From the IMG/VR virus record IMGVR_UViG_3300031555_003626, positions 128,001 through 192,000 of that record: a stretch of 64,000 nucleotides of DNA. One strand, given 5' to 3'. The position numbers were made by a program, and so were the translations under genes. The stretch is from a virus. Taxonomy: Duplodnaviria > Caudoviricetes. This document shows, piece after piece, positions 3,467 to 63,645 of the stretch (within the stretch, counting starts at the first letter, position 1; the number at the start of each line of letters is the position of its first letter). The notes beneath the pieces were generated by a model. That model made no database searches, was not told the DNA's origin, and saw only the letters and a list, made by a program, of their open reading frames with translations.

Positions 3467-3832
3467 ATGTCAAAGCTTAAGATTAAAACTCATACTACTT
3501 ATACTTATGAAACTACTGACGGCAGAGAATTCGAAGACCAGTCTGAGGCTCAGGAGTGGCAGGACCATTTAGAAAATATTACTGGCACCGTAATGCTTGA
3601 TCATAATTTTTGTAATACTACCAGAGTAGACGAAGCTATGTATGTACATGTTAAAACTGAGGCTCAGCTCAAAGCTTTTGAAGCTATCAATTCTTATGAA
3701 GGCATGTGTGCGAAGATTGATGCTCTCGGCTACTGGTACTATGATGAGCGCACAGATAATTATGTAAGCGTAAATAAGGAAATGTATAGGCTTCAGAGCA
3801 TTATTGAAACTCTTGATGTTCTTGGAAAGTGA
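3467..3832 (+). CDS. Hypothetical protein
   Basis: GAGGTG RBS; Y.T.DG..F motif shared with 26489 and 56293 ORFs. Confidence 0.75.
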   Translation: MSKLKIKTHTTYTYETTDGREFEDQSEAQEWQDHLENITGTVMLDHNFCNTTRVDEAMYVHVKTEAQLKAFEAINSYEGMCAKIDALGYWYYDERTDNYVSVNKEMYRLQSIIETLDVLGK

Positions 3833-3839
3833 GGATACG

Positions 3840-4994
3840 ATGTTTAATACTGAACTTGGCTTGTTTTGCTATATGCACGATAACTGGGAAGAGCTTTTGA
3901 CTCAAGAGCCTTATTATCTTAAGATAAAGGAAGACGGCCCTTATGTAATTTTTAACTATGACCAGCTCAGATCAGATTTTTCTAATCATATTGTTCAGGA
4001 AGCTAGAGGCATTATCTTTAAAAGAGATGATTGGACTCATCCTGTTTGTTGGCCGTTTATGAAGTTTTTTAATGCAGGAGAGCCAAACGCAGCAGAGATT
4101 GATTGGTCTACCGCTTTCGTATCTGAGAAGGTCGACGGCTCTCTAATTAAGGTATGGTGGGATGGTTCTTGGAAGATCTCTACTAATGGAACTATTGATG
4201 CTTATAAGGCAGAGATTGGTGACGCTAGAATGCCTGACTTCGGAACTTACTTTACTGAAACTATTCATACATACTATACTACCTGCAGTAGTTTTCTTTG
4301 TGAGCTTGACTCGGACCTTACCTATATGTTTGAGTTGGTAGGCCCTTATAACAGAGTAGTTATTCCTTACGAAGAGCCTGATATCTATTTCCTTGGAGCT
4401 CGTAATAAGTATACCGGAGAAGAGCTTAACTGTTCTCCTTTGGCTGCTGGTGCTCTTGGTATGGGAAGATTTAAGTTGCCTAAGCAGTACCCTTTTAATA
4501 CTTTGGAGCATTGTATTAAGGTTACTGAGAATTTCCCTTGGGACGCAGAAGGCGTTGTAGCCTGTGATGCTAATTTTAACCGTGTTAAGATAAAGTCGCC
4601 TGCTTATGTTATGGCGCACTTCGCCCGGAATAATAATGTGATCAATAGAAAGCATCTTATCAACGTAATCCTTACTAATGAGGTAGAAGAGTTTCTTTGT
4701 TATGCCGCCGACTACAAGGAAGAGCTCGAGAAGGTACAGAATCTTATGAAGGCTTACTATAAGGTAGGCGATCAGATTGCTAAGTCCTGTCAGCGACTCT
4801 ATGATATTCCTAAAAAGACTTATGCTTACTGGGTACAGACTCTTCCTAAGATTTATCAGGACCTTGCTTTCAGAAATTATAATAACATTATGTCTACTAA
4901 GGATTATACCGCCGGCTGGAATGAGAATAAGTGGGACCAGTATCTTGATGAGTTTGAAAAGCTTAAGGAGGTTTTGTTTGATGGCAAAAATTGA
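3840..4994 (+). CDS. RNA ligase, T4 Rnl1 (RnlA)-like
   Basis: EARGIIF, KFFN, motif I EKVDGSLI, FEL, EGVV, KIKS. Confidence 0.85.
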   Translation: MFNTELGLFCYMHDNWEELLTQEPYYLKIKEDGPYVIFNYDQLRSDFSNHIVQEARGIIFKRDDWTHPVCWPFMKFFNAGEPNAAEIDWSTAFVSEKVDGSLIKVWWDGSWKISTNGTIDAYKAEIGDARMPDFGTYFTETIHTYYTTCSSFLCELDSDLTYMFELVGPYNRVVIPYEEPDIYFLGARNKYTGEELNCSPLAAGALGMGRFKLPKQYPFNTLEHCIKVTENFPWDAEGVVACDANFNRVKIKSPAYVMAHFARNNNVINRKHLINVILTNEVEEFLCYAADYKEELEKVQNLMKAYYKVGDQIAKSCQRLYDIPKKTYAYWVQTLPKIYQDLAFRNYNNIMSTKDYTAGWNENKWDQYLDEFEKLKEVLFDGKN

Positions 4995-15411: not shown

Positions 15412-16041
15412 ATGATTGAATACAATAAGATTGATACTCTTTACAAGAGAGATATGGAAGGAACTAAGAAGCTTCTCGAGGGTGAGTTTAGAAATCCTAC
15501 AGTAGAGTTTCTTAAGGATAATATTTGGACTTTTACCGAGAAGATTGACGGAACCAATATATCCGTTTGTTGGGATGGACATACTATTACATTTAACGGC
15601 AGAACAGAAAGAGCTGAGATTCCTACACATCTTCTTAACTACCTTATGGCTACTTTTAAGACAAATGAGGCTGAACAGATTTTTGAGGAGAAGTTTGGTG
15701 AGACGCCGGTAATTCTTTTTGGTGAGGGCTATGGTCCTAAGATTCAGAACGGTGGAAACTACAGAGCTGACGTAAGCTTTATTATGTTTGACGTTCTTAT
15801 TGCAGGCAACTACCAGCCTAGAGAATCCGTAGAAGATATCGCAAAGGCATTTGGTATTGATATCGTGCCTATTATCTTCGAGGGAACTATTCAGGAAGGC
15901 GTAAACTTTGTAAAGGGTCATCCTGATTCTACTATGGGTACCGCAAAAATGGAGGGTCTCGTTGGTCGTCCTAAGATAGAGATGCGCGACCGTTGTGGTA
16001 AGCGAGTTATTGTTAAGATTAAGTGGGAAGACTTTAAGTAA
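15412..16041 (+). CDS. RNA ligase, Rnl2-like adenylation domain
   Basis: TEKIDGTN, FGEGYG..IQ, FDV, VP, EGLV, KIK. Confidence 0.8.
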   Translation: MIEYNKIDTLYKRDMEGTKKLLEGEFRNPTVEFLKDNIWTFTEKIDGTNISVCWDGHTITFNGRTERAEIPTHLLNYLMATFKTNEAEQIFEEKFGETPVILFGEGYGPKIQNGGNYRADVSFIMFDVLIAGNYQPRESVEDIAKAFGIDIVPIIFEGTIQEGVNFVKGHPDSTMGTAKMEGLVGRPKIEMRDRCGKRVIVKIKWEDFK

Positions 16042-44384: not shown

Positions 44385-44603
44385 ATGGAAAATAAAATTA
44401 TAACAGCCGAGGAAGGCAAAGTTTTTAGAAGAATTGCCGATGGTCAAATTTACGGAAAAGAGATTTCTTTAGGTTACTCTTATTATATTAATGGAATTAG
44501 ACTTGCTGAACCACATTTAGACATTCCAGAAGATTTTGAACAAATTGATGAGCCTATTATAGAATATCAAGAAGAAATATCAGATGAAGGAGATACTGAA
44601 TAA
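44385..44603 (+). CDS. Small tail fibre-associated protein
   Basis: ITAEEGKVFRR...I.LG...PEDFEQID. Confidence 0.6.
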   Translation: MENKIITAEEGKVFRRIADGQIYGKEISLGYSYYINGIRLAEPHLDIPEDFEQIDEPIIEYQEEISDEGDTE

Positions 44604-47600
44604 TGGCTTATGAATTAACTTATTCATTAATAAATAATAAAACAGAATATGAAATATCTGGATATACGGGCACTCCTGATGTTGTTGATATTCCTAGTAC
44701 ATATAATGGAAAATCTGTAACCTCAATCGGCTCTGATGCGTTCTATGAATGCACAAGCCTTACGAGCGTTGTTATCCCTGACAGCGTAACCTCAATCAAG
44801 CAGGCTGCGTTCATGCATTGCACGAGTCTTACAAGCATTACAATCCCTGATAGTGTAACCTCAATCGGCGGTTTTGTATTCTCTGGATGCACGAGCCTTA
44901 AATATAATGAATATGACAATGCTTATTATCTCGGTAATAAAAATAACCTGTACAGATGGTTGATAGAAGCGAAAAATACAAGTATAACTTCTGTTAATAT
45001 TCATGAGAATACTAAATTTATCGGCTATGATGCGTTCGAATACTGCAGGAGCCTTACGAGTGTGACTATTCCTGACAGTGTAACTAGCATCGGTTCTGAT
45101 GCGTTCTATTATTGCGACAGCCTTACGAGTGTTACAATCCCTGACAGTGTAACCACAATCGGCTCTAATGTGTTCGCTTATTGCACTAGCCTTACGAGCG
45201 TGACTATCAGTAATAGTCTAACCTCAATCGGTAGTTCTATGTTCAAACATTGTGACAAGCTTACGAGCGTAACTATCCCCGATAGTGTAACCACAATCAG
45301 CTCTTCTGCGTTCTTGGATTGCACGAGCCTTACAAGCGTAACTATCCCCAATAATGTAACCTCAATCGGCAATTATGTGTTCGATAATTGCACGAGCCTA
45401 AAATACAATGAATATGACAATGCTTATTATCTCGGTAACAAAAATAACCCTTACGTATTGTTAATAAAAGCGAAGAATAAAAGTATAACTTCTGTTAACA
45501 TTCATGATAATACTAAAATTATCTATGCTTCTGCATTCTCAGGTTGCATAAGCCTTAAGAGCATTACAATCCCTGATAATGTAAACTCAATCTGTGATTA
45601 TGCGTTCGAATTTTGCACAAAACTTAAGAGCGTAAATATTCCTGATAGTGTAACCACCATTGGCAATCGCGCGTTCTCTGATTGCGATAGCCTTAACGCA
45701 GTATATATCACCGACCTTGTCGCTTGGTATAATATAAGCTTTGGTAGTTATCTTGCAAATCCTCTTAATTGCGCAAATAATCTTTATCTCAACGGACAGC
45801 TTGTAACTGAGGTTGTAATTCCCGAAGGTATAACATCTATCAACTCTTCTGTGTTCTATAATTGCACAAGCCTTATGAAAGTGACTATCCCCAACAGTGT
45901 CACTATCATTAACACTTATGCCTTCTCAGGTTGCACGAACCTTATGAGTGTGACTTTACTAAGTACAACTCCGCCTTCATTAAGTTCCAATAGTTTTAAT
46001 AATATATCTGAAGATGTTAAATTCTATTGTGTTTCTTCAGTATTAGATACATATAAAACATCTACTAACTGGAATACTTATGCAGATAATTTTGTAACAG
46101 ATGACTTAAGATTATATTTCATTATGAATGCAAACTCTCAGAAGAATTATGTTAGAAATTATGTTGATTTAAAAGCATCTAAGTATGATGGTAGCGGAGA
46201 AAATTCTATTGTTGTTGGTGAAGGTTCAAATGCTATTGGAGGATCTTCTACTGCATTAGGATATTATGTTACTAGTGGCGCTAAAGCTTATGATTTTGAT
46301 ATTACAAAATCTTTAGATTATGCTGAAAACCAACCAGAAGAAGATATTACAAATAATGTAGGACGTTATTACTTAACAAGTAATGAAGGATTAACAGATC
46401 TTGCAGCAGGAGATGTATATTCAGTAATCCTTAGCGGTAACTGGGATTTCCAAGGAACTATTGCAGGTTATAACGATGATATTAATGACTGCTATATTAT
46501 AGTAGATAATTATATAAAGCCAACAGCTACTGATTATTATCTAAAAGATGAGAATGGTAATGATATCAAATATCGTAATACAAAAGTTACTACAAGCTCT
46601 TATATATTAATTGTAGACAAACCCTTAATTGGAAACAAAGTAATTGGAACAGGTACAGTTGCTTTAGGTTATTCAAACAAGGCAGAAGGTGTTTGTTCTG
46701 CTAGTATGGGTTATAATAACACTAGCGCAGGTAAATATAGCTTCAGTGCTGGACGAGACAATAAAGCTGGATACTGTGCTGCAGTATTTGGGCAACAATC
46801 AGAAGCATTAGGACACAATAGCTTTGCAAGTGGTGTACGTGCAAAAGCTCATGCTCATTACAGCTCAGCAATTGGTTATAATAATACTATTCAAAGTGGT
46901 GCTACTTATGGTGTTTGTCTTGGTACAGGACTTGTTGTGACAGACGAAGCACAAACAGTTGTTGGTAGATATAATAAAGAAGCCGACTCTAAAGGTTGTG
47001 TATTTGTAGTAGGCGGTGGCGAAGGTACTGGAGGCAGATCTAAAACTGCTTTATCTGTAACGCCTGCTGGAGATCTCAAAATAGCTGGTAGCTTTACAAA
47101 CAATGGAGATGCCCAAATTAAAGGTACTTTCAACGCTATGGATCAATTAGTGGTTGAACAGGGCATCACTACTTTAACAGATGCAGGACAGTTAAATGTG
47201 AATGGAGCTACTATTTTAAATGGCACTTTAACTGCAAATAATATAGTAACGATTGAAGGTAATACAACTTTAAATGGTACTATAACTGCTAATGGCTATT
47301 TAAATGCTGAAAGTGGTGCAACTCTAAAAGGTACAACTAATATAAATGGTACTCTTGTAGTATCTGGAGAGATAACGACAGGTGGTAAAAAAGTATATCG
47401 TATTCCAACTACTGGTGATTTAAAAAATACAGCTGCTTCAATGATTTTAGGAACAAGGCCTTTAAAAGATAGTGAAGGCAATGTTACTGGTTATGCAGAA
47501 AGTTACTTCAGTGTAGCCGCTAGTGGTACTAGTTCAAATTCTATTGCACAACGTGATAGCACAGGCTGTATACGAGTTGCTGAGCCTACTTTATCTAATC

Positions 47601-47662
47601 ATACTGCGACAAAGAAGTATGTTGATGATTTAATTAAATCAGCACTAAGTAAGAGTTATTAA
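44603..47662 (+). CDS. BspA-type leucine-rich repeat (LRR_5) protein fused to YadA-like fibre region
   Basis: Many LTSVTIPDSVTSIG..AF..C repeats, then A.G..S.A.G repeats, ATKKYVD. Confidence 0.8.
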   Translation: MAYELTYSLINNKTEYEISGYTGTPDVVDIPSTYNGKSVTSIGSDAFYECTSLTSVVIPDSVTSIKQAAFMHCTSLTSITIPDSVTSIGGFVFSGCTSLKYNEYDNAYYLGNKNNLYRWLIEAKNTSITSVNIHENTKFIGYDAFEYCRSLTSVTIPDSVTSIGSDAFYYCDSLTSVTIPDSVTTIGSNVFAYCTSLTSVTISNSLTSIGSSMFKHCDKLTSVTIPDSVTTISSSAFLDCTSLTSVTIPNNVTSIGNYVFDNCTSLKYNEYDNAYYLGNKNNPYVLLIKAKNKSITSVNIHDNTKIIYASAFSGCISLKSITIPDNVNSICDYAFEFCTKLKSVNIPDSVTTIGNRAFSDCDSLNAVYITDLVAWYNISFGSYLANPLNCANNLYLNGQLVTEVVIPEGITSINSSVFYNCTSLMKVTIPNSVTIINTYAFSGCTNLMSVTLLSTTPPSLSSNSFNNISEDVKFYCVSSVLDTYKTSTNWNTYADNFVTDDLRLYFIMNANSQKNYVRNYVDLKASKYDGSGENSIVVGEGSNAIGGSSTALGYYVTSGAKAYDFDITKSLDYAENQPEEDITNNVGRYYLTSNEGLTDLAAGDVYSVILSGNWDFQGTIAGYNDDINDCYIIVDNYIKPTATDYYLKDENGNDIKYRNTKVTTSSYILIVDKPLIGNKVIGTGTVALGYSNKAEGVCSASMGYNNTSAGKYSFSAGRDNKAGYCAAVFGQQSEALGHNSFASGVRAKAHAHYSSAIGYNNTIQSGATYGVCLGTGLVVTDEAQTVVGRYNKEADSKGCVFVVGGGEGTGGRSKTALSVTPAGDLKIAGSFTNNGDAQIKGTFNAMDQLVVEQGITTLTDAGQLNVNGATILNGTLTANNIVTIEGNTTLNGTITANGYLNAESGATLKGTTNINGTLVVSGEITTGGKKVYRIPTTGDLKNTAASMILGTRPLKDSEGNVTGYAESYFSVAASGTSSNSIAQRDSTGCIRVAEPTLSNHTATKKYVDDLIKSALSKSY

Positions 47663-57785: not shown

Positions 57786-58712
57786 ATGGCTAAGTTGATT
57801 ATTTTATGTGGGCTTCCTGGAAGTGGAAAGAGCTATTATGCTGCCCAGCTATGGCGAAGAGAAAACACCTTTGATGAGCCTACTGCAGTAGTACACTCTT
57901 CAGATGCTATAAGAAAAGAACTTTTCGGCGATGCAGGCTCGCAGGAAAATAATGCTCTTGTATTTGAGACTATGCATAAGAGAGTAAAGGACGACCTTAG
58001 AGCAGGTAAGACTGTAATTTATGATGCAACTAATATTACTCGAAAGTCTCGTCGTGGAATAATCAATATGACTACTAAAGACGATATTGTTGAGTGCCAT
58101 ATTGTTTGGGCGCCTGTTGATACTTGTATTAAGCGAGATGCCAAGCGCGAGCGCCACGTAGGTAGAGAAGTAATTGATAAGATGATTCGTCGTTGGCAGA
58201 GCCCACATAAGTCTGAAGGTTTTACTTGTATCGATGTTATCTGCTCAGACCCTAACTTTGATCAGACTAAGTACGTAGCAATGCAGGCTGACCAAATGCA
58301 TATACCCCATGACAACCCCCATCACACTCTTGGTGTTTGGGATCATTGTATGCAGGCTTATTACTATCTTTGCCAGCAGCCTAATATCAATGATGACCTG
58401 AAGACTGCTACAATGTGGCATGATATCGGAAAGCCTTATACTAAATCGTGGCATATCGATAAAGTAAACGGAGCAGTAGATTATTCACACGCTCATTATT
58501 ATGATCATCATTGTGTTGGCGGCTATCTTGCTTACGGACTTTTCTTACATAAGGATTTTGATGAGGAAGATGTAGACTTTATGTGTTGGGTGAGCTGGCT
58601 TATCTGCAATCACATGGAGCCTTTCTTTAACTCTCATTGGTATAGAGAACTTCCTGAGCACTTGAAGCAGCCTATTGATATATTGCATGCCGCTGACGTT
58701 TCTGCACATTAA
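57786..58712 (+). CDS. Polynucleotide kinase (AAA_33) fused to HD phosphohydrolase (Pnk-HD)
   Basis: GLPGSGKS, SSD.IR, YDATN..R..R, then HH...H...HDIGK...H...HM...AD. Confidence 0.85.
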   Translation: MAKLIILCGLPGSGKSYYAAQLWRRENTFDEPTAVVHSSDAIRKELFGDAGSQENNALVFETMHKRVKDDLRAGKTVIYDATNITRKSRRGIINMTTKDDIVECHIVWAPVDTCIKRDAKRERHVGREVIDKMIRRWQSPHKSEGFTCIDVICSDPNFDQTKYVAMQADQMHIPHDNPHHTLGVWDHCMQAYYYLCQQPNINDDLKTATMWHDIGKPYTKSWHIDKVNGAVDYSHAHYYDHHCVGGYLAYGLFLHKDFDEEDVDFMCWVSWLICNHMEPFFNSHWYRELPEHLKQPIDILHAADVSAH

Positions 58713-58804
58713 CATAAATTTTAATAAAATAACATTATAATGTTAAAATTACAAAAATAATATTGTATAATATAATGTGAGTGCAGAGCGCAGCATTCAC
58801 AAAT

Positions 58805-58862
58805 AGAGCCTATACTTATTTCTAACATAAATTTTGGGAATTTAAAAGTTGACAGTTAGGCC
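58805..58862 (+). ncRNA. Y-RNA-like bulged stem cassette without tRNA domain (leader of the Ro-like/TerD gene)
   Basis: agagcctatacttatttct...agttaggcc; same motif as 61045, 61211 and 61338 with compensatory changes. Confidence 0.6.
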
Positions 58863-58963
58863 AAAATTGAGATACTACTTTATTATAAGGCGGTGGCTTA
58901 TTTTGGTTTAGATCAAAAAGCTACCGTTATTTTATTTTGATTTTATTTAAAAGGAGATACATT

Positions 58964-60943
58964 ATGACTACTATTCAGAAGATTCTTATTTCTCGTCGTA
59001 TGCTTGTAGCAGATACTATTCCTACTAAGTCTGCTTTTAGACTTGAGGGCGCATATCTTAATGCGTTTCTTCTCGCTAACTTTGGTATTGTTGTAGATAA
59101 GCCTGAACTTCTTACTAAGGAAATGGTAAAGGACATCTCTGATGTTTATAAGCTTAACGTACCTAAGTCTTATTTCGCAAATCCTCAGGATACTAAGTTC
59201 TATACTGCTGAAGAGCTTCTTATAGAGCAGTGTATCTCTTATTTCCTTGCTTATGGTGCGGAGGATTCTCATGTTCACATTTTTGATAAGGAGCTTCCTG
59301 AGTACCCTGTAGGTGAGGAGATCAAGATTCGTGAGTTCCGTATTCTTGACGCCGACGAAGCAGAAGCCGAGCTTATGGAGATTACTAAGGCTTATGCTGC
59401 TTATAAGCGCCCTTGGGGCCTTGATGAGGCAGCAGAGTTCCTTGAGCTCTACAAGAATGGCTATTACAGATTTACCGAGATGCCTGTAAACTGTGGCGAC
59501 AACGCTGTTCTTATGCTCGGTGAGAACACTGATTTCGCACAGTTTCTCTTTAAGAAGGACGTTGTAAAGCTTTCTGTAGCTCGTTGTGGCGAGAAGAAGG
59601 AACTTTCTCTTGATGGCGCTACTCGTGGCCTTATCAAGGCAATTATTCCTCTCGTTAAGGACTGTCCTATGTCTAAGAAGCAGGCAAAGTATTTCAATAC
59701 TCTTGTCAAGCTTACCGGTTCTAAGGTAAAGAAGGCTTCTAATGAGGCATCTCCTAATAGACTTGCTCTTGAAAAGTTGAATGCTGGTGACGTTGTTGGT
59801 GCTGCAAAGATTTTTGCAAAGAGTGGTTCTCTTCTTGAGAGAAATCTTAAGTTCCTTCTTTCTCGTGCAAATCCTAGGGAGGCAATACAGATTCTCGACA
59901 TGCTTTCTAATGAGAACCCTGCTGTTCTTTATCAGATAATGTCTACTGTTCTTGCTGACAACGAGGAGGCTCGTACCTTCTCCTTCTACGCAAAAAATAG
60001 AATTAAGACTCATATTGAGACTGAGTACGAGGCTCGTTGGAGAAAGTCCAGACTTAATGACGCAACTAAGAAGCTTGTACACGATATGTGCTTTGAGAAG
60101 ATTGCTGAGCATTATGTAAACACTGAGTCTCTCCGTAAGGTTTACATCGCTCCTAATTTCTATAAGGTAGCAATGCCTGTTAATACTTCTGCCTCTGGTA
60201 AGGGTATCGACGTTCCTGCTACCGGAACTAGACTTCCTATCAACGGCACTAAGATCAGATCTTTCGTACATTGGGAGAATGCTTTCGATATTGACTCCTC
60301 TACTATCTACGAGTTTGGCGATGGCTCTCTCAAGATGATTAATTTTTGCAGTTATAATTACGAGAACTTCGATGGCGCTGCTCGCTTCTCAGGTGATATT
60401 ACTGGTCCTAAGGGTACTGAGTATTTCGACCTTGACCTTGAGTCTCTTAAGGAACAGGGTGTAAAAAGAGTAGTATTTACCTTCCATGGTTATTGTTCTA
60501 CTCTTGACTCCGGCGAGATTTATTGCGGTTACCAGAACAAGAATAACTTCAATACTAAGGCCTGGGATCCTAAGAACATTGAGCTTAAGATTCACGTTAA
60601 GGGTGAGAAGCGTGCCTATGTGGCATTTGCTATCGATCTTGAGACTATGGAGATTATAGTACTCAACCTGATGCGCGATGATGACTCTCGAGTTGTTTCG
60701 CCTAAGGACTTTGAGGCTATTAAGGCTTTCATGGATCCTGCAAAGCTTGAACTCAATATGGGTCTTATTGCTGAGTGGCGTGCAGCTGAGGTTGTTGAGA
60801 CCCCTGAAGAGGCCACTGTTATCTTCTCGGATGACTATGTTGTAAAGGAAGTGGAATTGGCAGAGAATGAGGTACCTGTACCTGCTCCTGTAGTAATCCG
60901 TTCCTTCGATATTGAGAAGCTTAACATGATTGCAAACGTTTAA
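58964..60943 (+). CDS. Helical-repeat (putative Ro/TROVE-like) protein with C-terminal TerD-like domain
   Basis: C-terminus FVHW....DIDSS...FSGDIT....EYFDLDL..L...GV..VVF...Y is TerD-like; the Ro-like call for the helical N-terminus is inferred from architecture and flanking RNAs. Confidence 0.6.
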   Translation: MTTIQKILISRRMLVADTIPTKSAFRLEGAYLNAFLLANFGIVVDKPELLTKEMVKDISDVYKLNVPKSYFANPQDTKFYTAEELLIEQCISYFLAYGAEDSHVHIFDKELPEYPVGEEIKIREFRILDADEAEAELMEITKAYAAYKRPWGLDEAAEFLELYKNGYYRFTEMPVNCGDNAVLMLGENTDFAQFLFKKDVVKLSVARCGEKKELSLDGATRGLIKAIIPLVKDCPMSKKQAKYFNTLVKLTGSKVKKASNEASPNRLALEKLNAGDVVGAAKIFAKSGSLLERNLKFLLSRANPREAIQILDMLSNENPAVLYQIMSTVLADNEEARTFSFYAKNRIKTHIETEYEARWRKSRLNDATKKLVHDMCFEKIAEHYVNTESLRKVYIAPNFYKVAMPVNTSASGKGIDVPATGTRLPINGTKIRSFVHWENAFDIDSSTIYEFGDGSLKMINFCSYNYENFDGAARFSGDITGPKGTEYFDLDLESLKEQGVKRVVFTFHGYCSTLDSGEIYCGYQNKNNFNTKAWDPKNIELKIHVKGEKRAYVAFAIDLETMEIIVLNLMRDDDSRVVSPKDFEAIKAFMDPAKLELNMGLIAEWRAAEVVETPEEATVIFSDDYVVKEVELAENEVPVPAPVVIRSFDIEKLNMIANV

Positions 60944-61044
60944 TTAAAATAACTGGGCGTTAATTAATTTTAGCGCCCATAATAAAAAAAATATTTTGCT
61001 AAATTAATTAAAAATTACGTTTATTATATCGTATAATATAATAC

Positions 61045-61157
61045 AGAGCCAATGCTTATTTCTTTGCCTGTTAAGCCGTGTGTCGCAGGTTCGAATCCTG
61101 CCATCCCGCTGCAGTGGGATGTAGCTCAGTGGTAGAGCAACGATTATTAGCTTGGCC
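61045..61157 (+). ncRNA. Circularly permuted tRNA-Asn(GTT)-derived, YrlA-like RNA
   Basis: Conserved stem, then gc-ctgttaa-gccgt, T arm gcagg-ttcgaat-cctgc, closed acceptor catcccg/tgggatg, D arm tagctcagtggtagagc, acg, then stem 3' strand. Confidence 0.8.
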
Positions 61158-61210
61158 AAAAATTAATATTAAAGCAAAATTTGCTATTAATCTATCGTAT
61201 AATATAACAT

Positions 61211-61328
61211 AGAGCCAATACTTATTTCTTTAATGCTGGGGACTGCGATCGTAGGTTCGACTCCTGCCCCGCCGACCAATCGGTGGGTAGCCAAGCGGTA
61301 AGGCAGCGGTTAAATTAATAGTTTGGCC
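61211..61328 (+). ncRNA. Circularly permuted tRNA-Pro-derived, YrlA-like RNA
   Basis: tgggg-actgc, T arm gtagg-ttcgact-cctgc, acceptor cccgccg-ACCA-at-cggtggg (C1-G72, A73), D arm, gcggt. Confidence 0.8.
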
Positions 61329-61337
61329 AAAAAGTTT

Positions 61338-61451
61338 AGAACCAATGCTTATTTCTTATGATTTTCCAGCTGGCCGTGCGGGTTCGATTCCCGTCGCTCG
61401 CAGAGCGGGTGTAGCTCAATGGTAGAGTTCCAGCTTTCATTTAGCTTGGTC
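61338..61451 (+). ncRNA. Circularly permuted tRNA-Gly(TCC)-derived, YrlA-like RNA
   Basis: ttcca-gctgg, T arm gcggg-ttcgatt-cccgt, acceptor cgctcgc-aga-gcgggtg, D arm, ccagc. Confidence 0.8.
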
Positions 61452-61467
61452 ATATTTTGTTTAATAT

Positions 61468-61577
61468 GGGCTGATTAGCTTAGTGGTAAACCTTGGGTAG
61501 TTTCACATACCAAGTTAAGAGGCAGAGCCCCTCCCTTCAAAGGAGGAGACTCCGGTTCGACTCCGGAATCTGGCCCA
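61468..61577 (+). tRNA. tRNA with UCA anticodon (UGA-reading) and D-loop insertion
   Basis: cctcc-cttcaaa-ggagg anticodon arm, T arm tccgg-ttcgact-ccgga, bulged 8-bp acceptor; about 35-nt hairpin in the D loop. Confidence 0.6.
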
Positions 61578-61585
61578 CTTAATAT

Positions 61586-61740
61586 GCTCCTGTGGCGGAA
61601 TAGGCAGACGCTGTGGACTTGTTTGAGTAGTTTAATGTAAAACAAGTCCGCAAGACTGATGTGAGTTCAAGTCTCATTTCAAGCACCAAAAATCCACTGC
61701 CCGTAAGGGCGTACCGGTTCGAGTCCGGTCAGGAGCACCA
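61586..61740 (+). tRNA. tRNA-Leu(TAA) interrupted in the anticodon by a nested tRNA-like element (61621-61688)
   Basis: Removing the insert gives an 87-nt class II tRNA with gtgga-cttaaaa-tccac and ACCA end. Confidence 0.85.
61621..61688 (+). other. Nested tRNA-like insert 1 (68 nt, ends ACCA)
   Basis: gtttgag/ttcaagc acceptor, gttt/aaac D stem, agtc-cgcaa-gact, gtgag-ttcaagt-ctcat. Confidence 0.8.
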
Positions 61741-62342: not shown

Positions 62343-62365
62343 AAAATCAATTTAATTAATAATAT

Positions 62366-62465
62366 GGGCATGTAAACTAAAATGGTAGAGTGGGATAATT
62401 GCCCGTGAGGTTCGATTCCTCCTTGGTCTTTGGTAGATATGCCGGTTCAAGTCCGGTCGTGCACT
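62366..62465 (+). pseudogene. Degenerate tRNA-like sequence with two T arms
   Basis: gggcatg/cgtgcac ends, D-arm-like start, gagg-ttcgatt-cctc and gccgg-ttcaagt-ccggt; no anticodon arm or CCA. Confidence 0.4.
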
Positions 62466-62472
62466 TTAATAC

Positions 62473-62810: not shown

Positions 62811-62947
62811 TGAGCTATGGTGTAAAGGTAGCACAACAGACTTTCGTGGATTAGCATAAGTAATGCACTACATGGTTATAATAGTTCAAGTCTATTATTC
62901 ACGGCCAGACTCTGTTGGTTTTGGTTCGAATCCAGATAGCTCAGCCA
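62811..62947 (+). tRNA. tRNA-Gln(TTG) interrupted by a nested tRNA-like element (62845-62907)
   Basis: Removing the insert gives a 74-nt tRNA with acaga-ctttgac-tctgt, T1-A72, GCCA end. Confidence 0.85.
62845..62907 (+). other. Nested tRNA-like insert 2 (63 nt, ends GCCA)
   Basis: cgtggat/attcacg acceptor, gcat/atgc D stem, aatag-ttcaagt-ctatt T arm, vestigial anticodon arm. Confidence 0.8.
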
Positions 62948-63446: not shown

Positions 63447-63645
63447 GCTTCCGTAGCTCAGCTGGTAGAGCAACAGACTTTGATTGAATCGTTTAAATGG
63501 GTTATTAGATTAGTGAATGGTATAAACCTAATTTAATAAGTTCTGTTCGTAGGACATCGGCCTGATAGCCGAAGATGTGAGTTCAAGTCTCGTTTCAGTC
63601 ACCATAATCTGTGGGTCGCGGGTTCGATTCCCGCCGGAGGCACCA
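63447..63645 (+). tRNA. tRNA-Lys(TTT) interrupted by a nested tRNA-like element (63482-63604)
   Basis: Removing the insert gives a 76-nt tRNA with acaga-cttttaa-tctgt and ACCA end. Confidence 0.85.
63482..63604 (+). other. Nested tRNA-like insert 3 (123 nt, Ile-like, own D-loop hairpin, ends ACCA)
   Basis: gattgaa/ttcagtc acceptor, tcggc-ctgata-gccga (6-nt loop), gtgag-ttcaagt-ctcgt. Confidence 0.8.

What the first reader, a model, noticed from the sequence alone, without database searches (positions are those of the whole stretch)
58805..61451. Ro-like/TerD gene flanked by four copies of a covarying bulged stem, three carrying circularly permuted tRNAs of different isotypes
Seen: the cassette AGA(G/A)CC(A/T)AT(G/A)CTTATTTCT ... 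AG(C/T)T(T/A)GG(C/T)C occurs at 58805, 61045, 61211 and 61338. It forms an 8-bp helix with an invariant bulged U, and differences between copies are compensatory (G-C to A-T, A-T to T-A). In three copies the interior runs T arm, loop-closed acceptor stem, D arm, which is a tRNA opened at the anticodon. They trace to tRNA-Asn, tRNA-Pro (C1-G72, A73, even internal CCA) and tRNA-Gly. Copies at 61045 and 61211 begin 7-8 nt after their own TATAAT. Established: bacterial YrlA Y RNAs have this permuted tRNA module on a Ro60-binding bulged stem and lie beside Ro (TROVE) genes. Inference: 58964-60943 is a divergent Ro-type ring with TerD in place of vWA, and these are its Y RNAs with a distinct binding motif. 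Independent capture of three isotypes with anticodon remnants suggests a decoy or adaptor array, for example against tRNA-targeting defence nucleases.
Basis: partly seen in the sequence, partly recalled or inferred. Interest (0 to 1): 0.9.

Follow-up and report, generated by a model that had tools for sequence, protein, structure and literature searches.

The report
Phage Y-like RNAs displaying anticodon loops
A 233-kb gut phage encodes seven small RNAs that share one conserved bulged stem "handle" and display tRNA bodies or bare anticodon loops, and this handle always travels with a helical-plus-TerD protein gene, pointing to an undescribed RNA-protein particle built on the plan of Ro60 with its Y RNAs.

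Summary
All four cassettes sit at the stated coordinates, and three more lie just past the window end. The stem has 9 pairs with two bulges, is 100% paired across 23 copies, and six pairs show double (compensatory) changes. A covariance model trained only on short copies finds the three tRNA-bearing copies exactly.

The interiors of three copies are inside-out tRNAs of YrlA topology. They give sub-threshold Rfam YrlA hits, and ARAGORN calls them tRNAs after un-permutation.

New here: nearly half of the "empty" copies carry a short stem capped by a canonical 7-nt anticodon loop (27 of 58, against 3.2 in shuffles). The copy in the gene's leader keeps its handle but changes anticodon between relatives.

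The handle lies upstream of the protein gene in 14 of 14 related loci. A distant protein subfamily (27-31% identity) carries a second, related handle class.

Best reading: a Ro60/Y-RNA-like particle with a new handle and a non-TROVE partner, possibly a decoy set for anticodon-directed host enzymes. Binding and expression are untested. This scan has noted the same pair on other DNA (at least 28 genomes).

The parts
57786..58712 (+). Polynucleotide kinase with a C-terminal HD-like region (RNA end-healing enzyme), directly upstream
   Evidence: Pfam AAA_33 at 2e-25 and PHROG 505 polynucleotide kinase. The HD-like C-terminus was read from the sequence only. Adjacency is kept only in the closest relatives.
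58766..58776 (+). Promoter-like -10 (TGTATAATATAAT) for the leader RNA and the protein gene
   Evidence: Consensus scan. The same TATYGTATAATATAA motif recurs before other RNAs of the island.
58805..58862 (+). Handle RNA 1, in the leader of the protein gene. Its cargo is a 5-bp stem capped by UUUGGGA, a tRNA-Pro(UGG)-type anticodon loop.
   Evidence: CM R1 65.3 bits, E 5e-14. Covariation. Loop call.
58890..58950 (+). Leader hairpin followed by a U-rich tract that can also pair with the RBS. It looks like a terminator or attenuator.
   Evidence: MFE -22.5 kcal/mol, z -3.45. The simple terminator scan does not call it because its loop is too long.
58964..60943 (+). 659-aa protein: helical solenoid (about residues 1-400), TerD beta-sandwich (about 425-586) and a C-terminal helical tail
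61032..61037 (+). TATAAT placed 7 nt before handle RNA 2
61045..61157 (+). Handle RNA 2. Its cargo is a permuted tRNA body (T arm, acceptor closed by a 4-nt loop, D arm) with an intact CUGUUAA (Asn GUU) loop beside the handle.
   Evidence: Rfam YrlA 43 bits. R1 36.3 bits, E 1e-6. Fold. ARAGORN after un-permutation.
61198..61203 (+). TATAAT placed 7 nt before handle RNA 3
   Evidence: Read from the sequence.
61211..61328 (+). Handle RNA 3. Its cargo is a permuted tRNA-Pro(UGG) body with C1-G72, A73 and an internal CCA.
   Evidence: R1 38 bits, E 4e-7. ARAGORN tRNA-Pro(tgg) after un-permutation. YrlA 24 bits.
61338..61451 (+). Handle RNA 4 (handle variant AGAACC...GGUC, with A4-U compensating G4-C). 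Its cargo is a permuted tRNA body that is Gly-like, with a UUUUCCA loop relic.
   Evidence: R1 36.4 bits. YrlA full-length hit at 31.9 bits. The MFE fold shows the anticodon stem, T arm, closed acceptor and D arm. ARAGORN calls it Glu(ttc).

Best explanation
These are the RNA subunits of a phage ribonucleoprotein built on the plan of Ro60 with its Y RNAs, but with a different handle and a partner protein that is not a recognisable TROVE protein.

RNA. Each RNA closes its 5' and 3' ends into a 9-pair stem with a bulged A and a bulged pyrimidine, next to an invariant UAUUUCU strand. This is shown by covariation. This handle carries a swappable cargo. The cargo is an inside-out tRNA body that keeps its anticodon loop beside the handle, a T-arm/acceptor minihelix, or a bare anticodon stem-loop mimic. 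This is shown by sequence and statistics.

Protein. The 659-aa helical-plus-TerD protein most likely binds the handle. This is inferred from strict co-occurrence over deep divergence, and from the handle class changing with the protein subfamily.

Leader. The copy in the gene's own leader, followed by a terminator-like hairpin, most likely lets the protein or the free-RNA pool feed back on the gene's expression (inferred).

Function. The displayed anticodon loops most likely act as decoys or sponges for host enzymes that recognise tRNA anticodon loops, such as anticodon nucleases. Alternatively they tether tRNA-handling enzymes to the particle, as Y RNAs tether PNPase to Ro60. This step is speculative.

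Confidence by step: about 0.7 that the protein binds the handle, about 0.5 that the protein is Ro60-shaped, and about 0.3 for the decoy role.
For: Handle is a real structure:
- 100% pairing, 6 of 9 pairs with compensatory changes, 0 of 500 shuffles reach the score.
- CM R1, trained on short copies, finds all 7 genome copies with exact ends and nothing else in the 64-kb window below E 0.7.

Cargo mimics tRNA:
- Sub-threshold YrlA hits, cloverleaf-like MFE folds and ARAGORN calls after un-permutation.
- 27 of 58 distinct short cargos are a stem of 4 bp or more with a Y-U-NNN-R-N loop, against 3.2 +/- 1.5 (maximum 8) in dinucleotide-preserving shuffles.
- The leader copy keeps the handle GCCUA/UAGGC while its loop reads Pro UGG, Ser GGA, Cys GCA, Ser UGA or Lys UUU in different relatives.
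- Copy 2 reads Asn GUU here and Lys UUU in L010.

Linkage to the protein gene:
- A handle lies upstream of the gene in 14 of 14 loci, including L115, which has no tRNA island downstream.
- The P0170 subfamily (27-31% identity) has 2-4 copies of a related handle, GCUA-N5-RCU-UACUU[CU]...AGU-N5'-AAUA. All 24 copies with the gcta/gctg prefix lie within 420 nt upstream on the gene's strand. They again carry Lys, Asn and Pro loops and one permuted tRNA.

Protein:
- Confident model and a TerD domain.
- Ro60 (1yvp) and Rsr (2nvo) are the only matches of 250 or more aligned residues among the top 11 of 48,161 chains.
- A phage TROVE protein matches in BFVD at probability 0.96.

Context:
- Pnk-HD lies next door, and the genome holds Rnl1- and Rnl2-type ligases.

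Precedent:
- Phage phiRo60 binds two Y-like RNAs encoded upstream of its gene (PMC12135203).
Against: - There is no direct evidence that the RNAs are made or that the protein binds them.
- Many cargos (31 of 58 short ones) show no anticodon-like loop.
- The cassette copies counted are partly orthologues, so the enrichment statistic overstates independence.
- The Pnk-HD neighbour is kept only in the closest relatives, so the tie to RNA repair is facultative.
- One 230-kb relative shows a handle but no protein hit. The handle sits 700 nt from the contig end there, so that case is uninformative.
Confidence: 0.6

Rival explanations
1. RNA-only processing or stability elements. The bulged stem is a signal for a host or phage ribonuclease, or a protective end structure. 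It punctuates and stabilises pieces of the tRNA-island transcripts, and the TerD protein is merely a neighbour.
For: Copies occur in tandem arrays spaced 70-150 nt apart among tRNAs. Some arrays lie about 8-15 kb from the protein gene. Several copies lack their own promoter and must be cut out of longer transcripts.
Against: A handle stays in the leader of the protein gene in 14 of 14 loci, even where no tRNA island follows (L115). A diverged handle class tracks a protein subfamily that is only 27-31% identical. The cargo is selected for anticodon-loop shape, which a cleavage signal would not need.
Confidence: 0.15
2. True permuted tRNA genes. The three tRNA-bearing copies are circularised or end-joined at the handle by the phage ligases, then opened at the acceptor by RNase P and 3' trimming to give working tRNAs, as in the red alga Cyanidioschyzon.
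For: The Pro copy has C1-G72, A73 and CCA inside the closing loop. The phage encodes Rnl1-like and Rnl2-like ligases and Pnk. Neighbouring tRNAs carry unusual tRNA-shaped inserts that also call for a ligase.
Against: Two of the three acceptor stems are closed by 3-4 nt without CCA. Removing the handle exactly leaves 13-21 extra nt in the anticodon loop; ARAGORN needs a 13-14-nt 'intron'. The handle has two 1-nt bulges on one strand and is not a bulge-helix-bulge. Most family members carry only an anticodon hairpin, a minihelix or unrelated cargo. The phage already has ordinary tRNA-Pro(UGG), Asn(GUU) and Glu(UUC) genes.
Confidence: 0.07
3. Canonical Ro60/YrlA system. The protein is a very divergent TROVE protein and the RNAs are ordinary YrlA family members, so nothing new is present.
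For: YrlA topology and sub-threshold RF02553 hits. Ro60 and Rsr appear in the structural top 10. RNAs lie upstream of the gene, as for phage phiRo60 (PMC12135203).
Against: No TROVE hit in the protein, in 71 relatives or in the genome. hhalign probability is 0.15%. TerD replaces the vWA/MIDAS domain. The RNAs lack the GNCGAA Rsr-binding motif and fall below the Rfam gathering score. The anticodon loop is retained, unlike in YrlA.
Confidence: 0.1
4. Purely cis-acting leader. The handle is an operator or attenuator of the protein gene, and the other copies are decayed duplicates.
For: There is always a copy in the leader, followed here by a strong hairpin plus U-run that can also mask the RBS.
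Against: Copies 2 and 3 have their own TATAAT 7 nt upstream. Distant arrays keep perfect pairing and invariant loop strands. The cargos are structured and under selection.
Confidence: 0.05

Closest known systems
Ro60 (Rsr; TROVE + vWA) with YrlA/YrlB Y RNAs of bacteria and phages (Rfam RF02553; Chen et al. 2014, PMC4201824; YrlA structure, bioRxiv 10.1101/312249)
   Different: No TROVE signal by HMM or profile-profile comparison. TerD replaces vWA/MIDAS. The handle sequence (AGA-N5-Y-RCU-UAUUUCU / AGY-N5'-C) is unrelated to GNCGAA or GGUCCGA, and its lower helix varies freely. The anticodon loop is kept and displayed, and many members are bare anticodon stem-loops. There are up to 7-10 RNAs per genome, in arrays.
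Thermus phage phiLo phiRo60 with Yrl1 and Yrl2 (PMC12135203; PDB 9KOP, 9L5Y)
   Same: A phage-encoded ring protein with Y-like RNAs encoded just upstream of its gene. It is proposed to hijack a host RNA enzyme as counter-defence.
   Different: phiRo60 is a recognisable Ro60 (HEAT repeats plus vWA), and its Yrls carry the CGAA motif. No anticodon display is reported.
tRNA anticodon-arm mimicry in the E. coli thrS mRNA operator (textbook knowledge, not checked here)
   Same: An anticodon stem-loop look-alike sits in the leader of a gene.
   Different: In thrS the binding protein recognises the anticodon mimic itself. Here the conserved, and presumably recognised, part is the handle, while the anticodon changes between relatives.
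Circularly permuted tRNA genes of Cyanidioschyzon merolae (general knowledge; reviewed in PMC3400036)
   Same: The 3' half of a tRNA is encoded before the 5' half.
   Different: Those genes have a bulge-helix-bulge junction, a longer leader/trailer linker and yield working tRNAs. Here the junction is a conserved bulged handle shared with non-tRNA cargos.

Membership tests
YrlA (Rfam RF02553) | Scores at or above the Rfam gathering threshold (69 bits) | tested here: not met
   43, 31.9 and 24 bits for the three tRNA-bearing copies; no hit for copy 1.
YrlA (Rfam RF02553) | tRNA-like module: T arm, acceptor stem closed by a loop, D arm, mounted on a stem formed by the RNA's two ends | tested here: met
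   cmscan alignment to model positions 23-86, MFE folds and ARAGORN after un-permutation.
YrlA (Rfam RF02553) | Rsr-binding motif GNCGAAN0-1G near the 5' end (PMC4201824) | tested here: not met
   The 5' strand is AGAGCCWAURCUUAUUUCU in every copy; no GNCGAA is present there.
YrlA (Rfam RF02553) | Encoded next to a TROVE-domain (Ro60/Rsr) gene | tested here: not met
   PF05731 was not found anywhere in the 233-kb genome, while the controls rang.
Ro60 / TROVE proteins | Sequence match to the TROVE domain (PF05731) | tested here: not met
   No hit for the protein or for 71 family members at E up to 5. hhalign of the family against 46 genuine TROVE proteins gives probability 0.15%.
Ro60 / TROVE proteins | Closed ring of HEAT-like helical repeats | tested here: inconclusive
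Ro60 / TROVE proteins | C-terminal vWA domain with MIDAS | tested here: not met
TerD domain family | TerD beta-sandwich fold | tested here: met
TerD domain family | Sequence match to the Pfam TerD model | tested here: not met
   No TerD hit at E up to 1 for the protein, or up to 5 for 71 relatives. A conserved S-G-D at 476-478 resembles the TerD calcium-site motif, but that resemblance is from memory only.
Permuted tRNA genes (functional) | Bulge-helix-bulge at the junction, and exact restoration of a 7-nt anticodon loop on joining | tested here: not met
   The junction is the bulged handle. Joining the cargo ends leaves 13-14 or more extra nt.

The most novel reading that the evidence does not exclude
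Large phages carry a modular 'anticodon display' kit: a ring-like helical-TerD protein holds a universal RNA handle. The cargo on that handle (whole tRNA bodies or bare anticodon loops) is swapped rapidly between relatives to bait, block or sense whichever host anticodon nucleases or tRNA-modifying enzymes the phage currently faces. That would be an RNA-based, programmable counter-defence, and an analogue of Ro60/Y RNA that arose independently or diverged beyond sequence recognition.
Probability: 0.3. Interest if true: 0.9.

Novelty: new variant of a known kind. Interest (0 to 1): 0.8.

Why it matters
Ro60/Y-RNA particles are known from animals, bacteria and a few phages, and what their tRNA-like modules do is still open. 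This finding offers a second, sequence-unrelated version of the same design. The protein family has 945 clusters at 50% identity.

The RNA cargo is explicit here. It consists of real anticodon loops that change between close relatives while the handle stays fixed. That pattern is what an arms race with anticodon-directed host enzymes would produce.

This gives a directly testable hypothesis for the function of tRNA mimicry in Y-like RNAs. It also yields a compact RNA handle and protein pair that could be studied structurally.

No paper describing a TerD-fused partner or this handle turned up in the library searches.

Tried and rejected
- Single-sequence AlphaFold2 of the protein was useless (pLDDT 34). 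This cost one of the two folding jobs, so the helical domain could not be folded alone.
- PDB sequence searches with the protein and with the family profile found nothing.
- Megablast of the region and tblastn of the protein against 50,697 cultured-phage records gave no match, or only partial TerD-region matches in Rhodococcus and Rhodobacter phages.
- The protein-atlas search gave only unnamed or 'TerD family' viral clusters below 0.9.
P0178 as query found no locus.
There is therefore no expression evidence and no neighbourhoods for more distant family members.
- The genome-contig scan for the handle returned mostly single chance matches. Only L190, a 19.8-kb contig binned with a Bacteroidales MAG, holds a true tandem array. 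That is a weak hint to the host.
- 54 of 95 viral contigs pattern hits lacked a 3' partner and were discarded as chance.
- CM R1 did not detect the second handle class; that class was found by reading the upstream regions.
- RtcB is absent from the genome.
- Burroughs and Aravind 2016 could not be read because it is not held.
- Complex prediction was not used. It takes no RNA, and I make no claim that the protein binds Pnk-HD.
Full report
SETTING. The window is bases 128001-192000 of a 233,329-bp IMG/VR virus record that CheckV rates as complete. Upstream genes encode tail-fibre-like proteins with BspA-type LRR and YadA-head repeats. The finding sits at the head of a roughly 10-kb island of tRNAs and structured RNAs.

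THE OBSERVATION. A genome-wide pattern search finds them plus three more just beyond the window end, at genome 196445, 196525 and 196639. All are on the + strand, and the reverse strand and the backwards control give none.

The structure has 9 pairs:
- G2 pairs with the last C, and A3 bulges.
- Five pairs follow whose sequence varies freely.
- A pyrimidine bulges at position 9.
- RCU pairs with AGY.
- An invariant 5'-UAUUUCU follows.

I aligned 23 short copies from this phage and its relatives. Every cell pairs, and six of the nine pairs show changes on both sides. No change is one-sided, and 0 of 500 shuffles reach the covariation score. Sliding the partner strand drops pairing to 3-58%.

The copies were collected by their 5' motif and by requiring a 3' partner, so some selection is built in. 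Two checks are independent of that. Unconstrained MFE folding recovers the handle in all four window copies. A covariance model built only from short copies finds the three tRNA-bearing copies, which were not in its training set. It places their ends exactly at 61045-61157, 61211-61328 and 61338-61451, at E about 1e-6. Nothing else in 64 kb scores below E 0.7.

The bulged base is not strictly invariant. It is C in one genome copy and G in L115.

THE tRNA CORES. Rfam's YrlA model matches the three cores below threshold: 43, 31.9 and 24 bits against a gathering score of 69. MFE folds show the T arm, an acceptor stem closed by 3-4 nt and the D arm. I cut the cores at the acceptor loop and rejoined them in tRNA order, then ran ARAGORN, which called all three tRNAs:
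Its loop relic UUUUCCA is ambiguous.
- Lys for the third, through a junction artefact. Its intact loop CUGUUAA reads Asn.

The break in each case lies just 5' of the anticodon loop. The whole loop therefore survives as the strand that joins handle and anticodon stem.

Copies 2 and 3 start 7 nt after a TATAAT. That fits transcription starting at the first base of the handle.

WHAT THE 'EMPTY' COPIES CARRY. The short cargos are not filler. Among 58 distinct short cargos from this clade, 27 contain a stem of at least 4 bp capped by a 7-nt loop with the anticodon-loop signature Y-U-NNN-R-N. Dinucleotide-preserving shuffles give 3.2 +/- 1.5, with a maximum of 8.
- The window's leader copy shows UUUGGGA (Pro UGG).
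- Genome copy 196639 shows UUUAGGA (Leu UAG).
- Relatives show CUUUUAA (Lys UUU, seven distinct copies), CUGCAAA (Cys) and CUGGAAA (Ser), among others.

The copy in the leader of the protein gene keeps an almost invariant handle (GCCUA/UAGGC). Its loop, however, reads Pro, Ser(GGA), Cys, Ser(UGA) or Lys in different relatives. Copy 2 reads Asn here and Lys in L010.

The copies are partly orthologous, so the statistic overstates independence. The diversity of loops on a fixed handle is nevertheless plain. I tested it here on this clade.

In this genome the displayed anticodons are UGG, GUU, UAG, GAU and UUC or UCC. They mostly coincide with anticodons of the phage's own tRNA genes. The sample is small and I treat this only as a lead.

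LINKAGE TO THE PROTEIN. The 659-aa protein has 508 relatives in one search and 945 clusters at 50% identity in the other. In 13 viral loci with proteins 48-79% identical, a handle always lies 100-350 nt upstream of the start codon. A fourteenth locus (L115, 50% identity) has a bulged-G variant upstream and no tRNA island downstream.

I then fetched loci of a distant subfamily (query P0170; 27-31% identity to the window's protein). Model R1 finds nothing there. Reading the upstream regions reveals 2-4 tandem copies of a second, related handle: GCUA-N5-RCU-UACUU[CU]...AGU-N5'-AAUA. N5 and N5' covary. All 24 copies with the gcta/gctg prefix lie within 420 nt upstream on the gene's strand. They again enclose Lys, Asn and Pro anticodon hairpins and one permuted tRNA.

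So the RNA-protein pair persists across deep divergence, and the handle changes with the protein. That is the pattern expected of binding partners.

One 230-kb relative has a handle but no protein hit. The handle there lies 700 nt from the contig end, so the case says nothing.

Sequence gives nothing:
- No TROVE hit in the protein, in 71 relatives or in the genome.
- I fetched genuine TROVE proteins from Bacteroidales genomes. hhalign between their alignment and the phage family gives probability 0.15%.

I therefore call the protein 'possibly Ro60-shaped, not a recognisable TROVE protein'.

CONTEXT. The gene directly upstream is a polynucleotide kinase with an HD-like C-terminus. The genome also encodes Rnl1-like and Rnl2-like RNA ligases but no RtcB. 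The Pnk adjacency is kept only in the closest relatives. RNA repair is thus an associated theme and not a core theme.

The leader between handle 1 and the RBS folds into a strong hairpin with a U-run. The U-run can alternatively pair with the RBS (z -3.45). That fits attenuation or translational feedback.

INTERPRETATION. The best-supported reading is an RNP analogous to Ro60/Y RNA. The handle is the protein-binding site, the cargo is a tRNA or anticodon mimic, and the leader copy is a feedback operator.

The closest published systems are Ro60 with YrlA/YrlB (PMC4201824) and phage phiRo60 with Yrl1 and Yrl2 encoded upstream of its gene (PMC12135203). Jumbo phages with TROVE proteins and tRNA-like partners are also on record (PMC7824862).

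The differences from those systems are:
- the unrelated handle;
- the TerD domain in place of vWA;
- the lack of TROVE sequence signal;
- the retained, swappable anticodon loops;
- the large number of RNAs per genome.

The decoy idea fits the anticodon swapping and the prominence of Lys(UUU) loops. tRNA-Lys is a known target of anticodon nucleases, but that is general knowledge I did not test here. The idea remains speculative.

Rivals are listed with their evidence: RNA-only processing signals, real permuted tRNA genes, canonical Ro60/YrlA, and a purely cis-acting leader. None accounts for the co-variation of handle class with protein subfamily together with the selected anticodon-shaped cargos.

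LIMITS. There is no expression data and no binding data. The helical domain was not searched alone. Host assignment rests on one Bacteroidales-binned contig (L190).

EARLIER NOTES. This scan has already noted the same handle-plus-TerD-protein pair in at least 28 other genomes. Those are unchecked AI notes and were used only as leads.

Noticed in passing
window 61586-61737, 62811-62944, 63447-63642: Three tRNA genes (Leu UAA, Gln UUG and Lys UUU by my reading) are each split inside the anticodon loop. The inserts are 68, 63 and 123 nt long (earlier notes; cmscan gaps of 71, 66 and 125 nt overlap retained loop bases), and each is itself tRNA-shaped: a 7-bp acceptor, a GAGUUCAAGUCUC T arm, a discriminator and CCA. 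Removing the insert exactly restores a 7-nt loop. Earlier reports of this scan cover this (e1-5657788 and others) and name the Lak-megaphage 'enigmatic' tRNA introns as the closest known case.
   Followed up: partly
window 3804-4994 and 15412-16041: A T4 Rnl1-like RNA ligase (PF09511, E 1.6e-13) and an Rnl2-type RNA ligase (PF09414, E 1.2e-18). Together with the Pnk-HD gene at 57786-58712 they form a T4-style tRNA-repair toolkit. No RtcB is present.
   Followed up: partly
window 61470-61580: A tRNA-like gene with a very long variable arm and a possible UCA anticodon (GUUUCAC loop). Rfam tRNA matches only in part (61513-61567, 31.9 bits) and ARAGORN does not call it. It could be an opal suppressor or a Sec-like tRNA.
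   Followed up: no
window 62350-62470: A composite tRNA-like stretch with two T-arm-like hairpins (GGUUCGAUUCC and GGUUCAAGUCC) that no tRNA finder calls.
   Followed up: no
genome 195630-196170 (beyond the window end; locus L006): A tRNA 5' half (GGUAGCUCAGUGCUAGAGC...) and a tRNA 3' end (ARAGORN tRNA-Glu CUC at 196094-196169) are separated by about 450 nt of structured RNA. This may be a tRNA with a large (group I-like?) intron.
   Followed up: no
L013 13091, L016 8105, L114 6883 (related phages): Some handle RNAs carry only a T arm plus a loop-closed acceptor minihelix (no D arm), one of them with an internal ACCA. This is a third cargo class beside whole tRNA bodies and anticodon hairpins.
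   Followed up: partly
L190 (contig CALCHR010000198.1, Bacteroidales MAG): A 19.8-kb contig binned with an uncultured Bacteroidales genome carries four tandem handle RNAs nearly identical to the window's. This is a weak hint that the host is in the Bacteroidales, which fits the BspA-type LRR tail-fibre proteins at window 44603-47662.
   Followed up: no
window 58764, 61024, 61193, 63330 and genome 193448, 195113, 196190: A recurrent phage promoter-like motif, TAT(C/T)GTATAATATAA, precedes many RNAs of the island. It probably marks one temporal class of transcription units.
   Followed up: no
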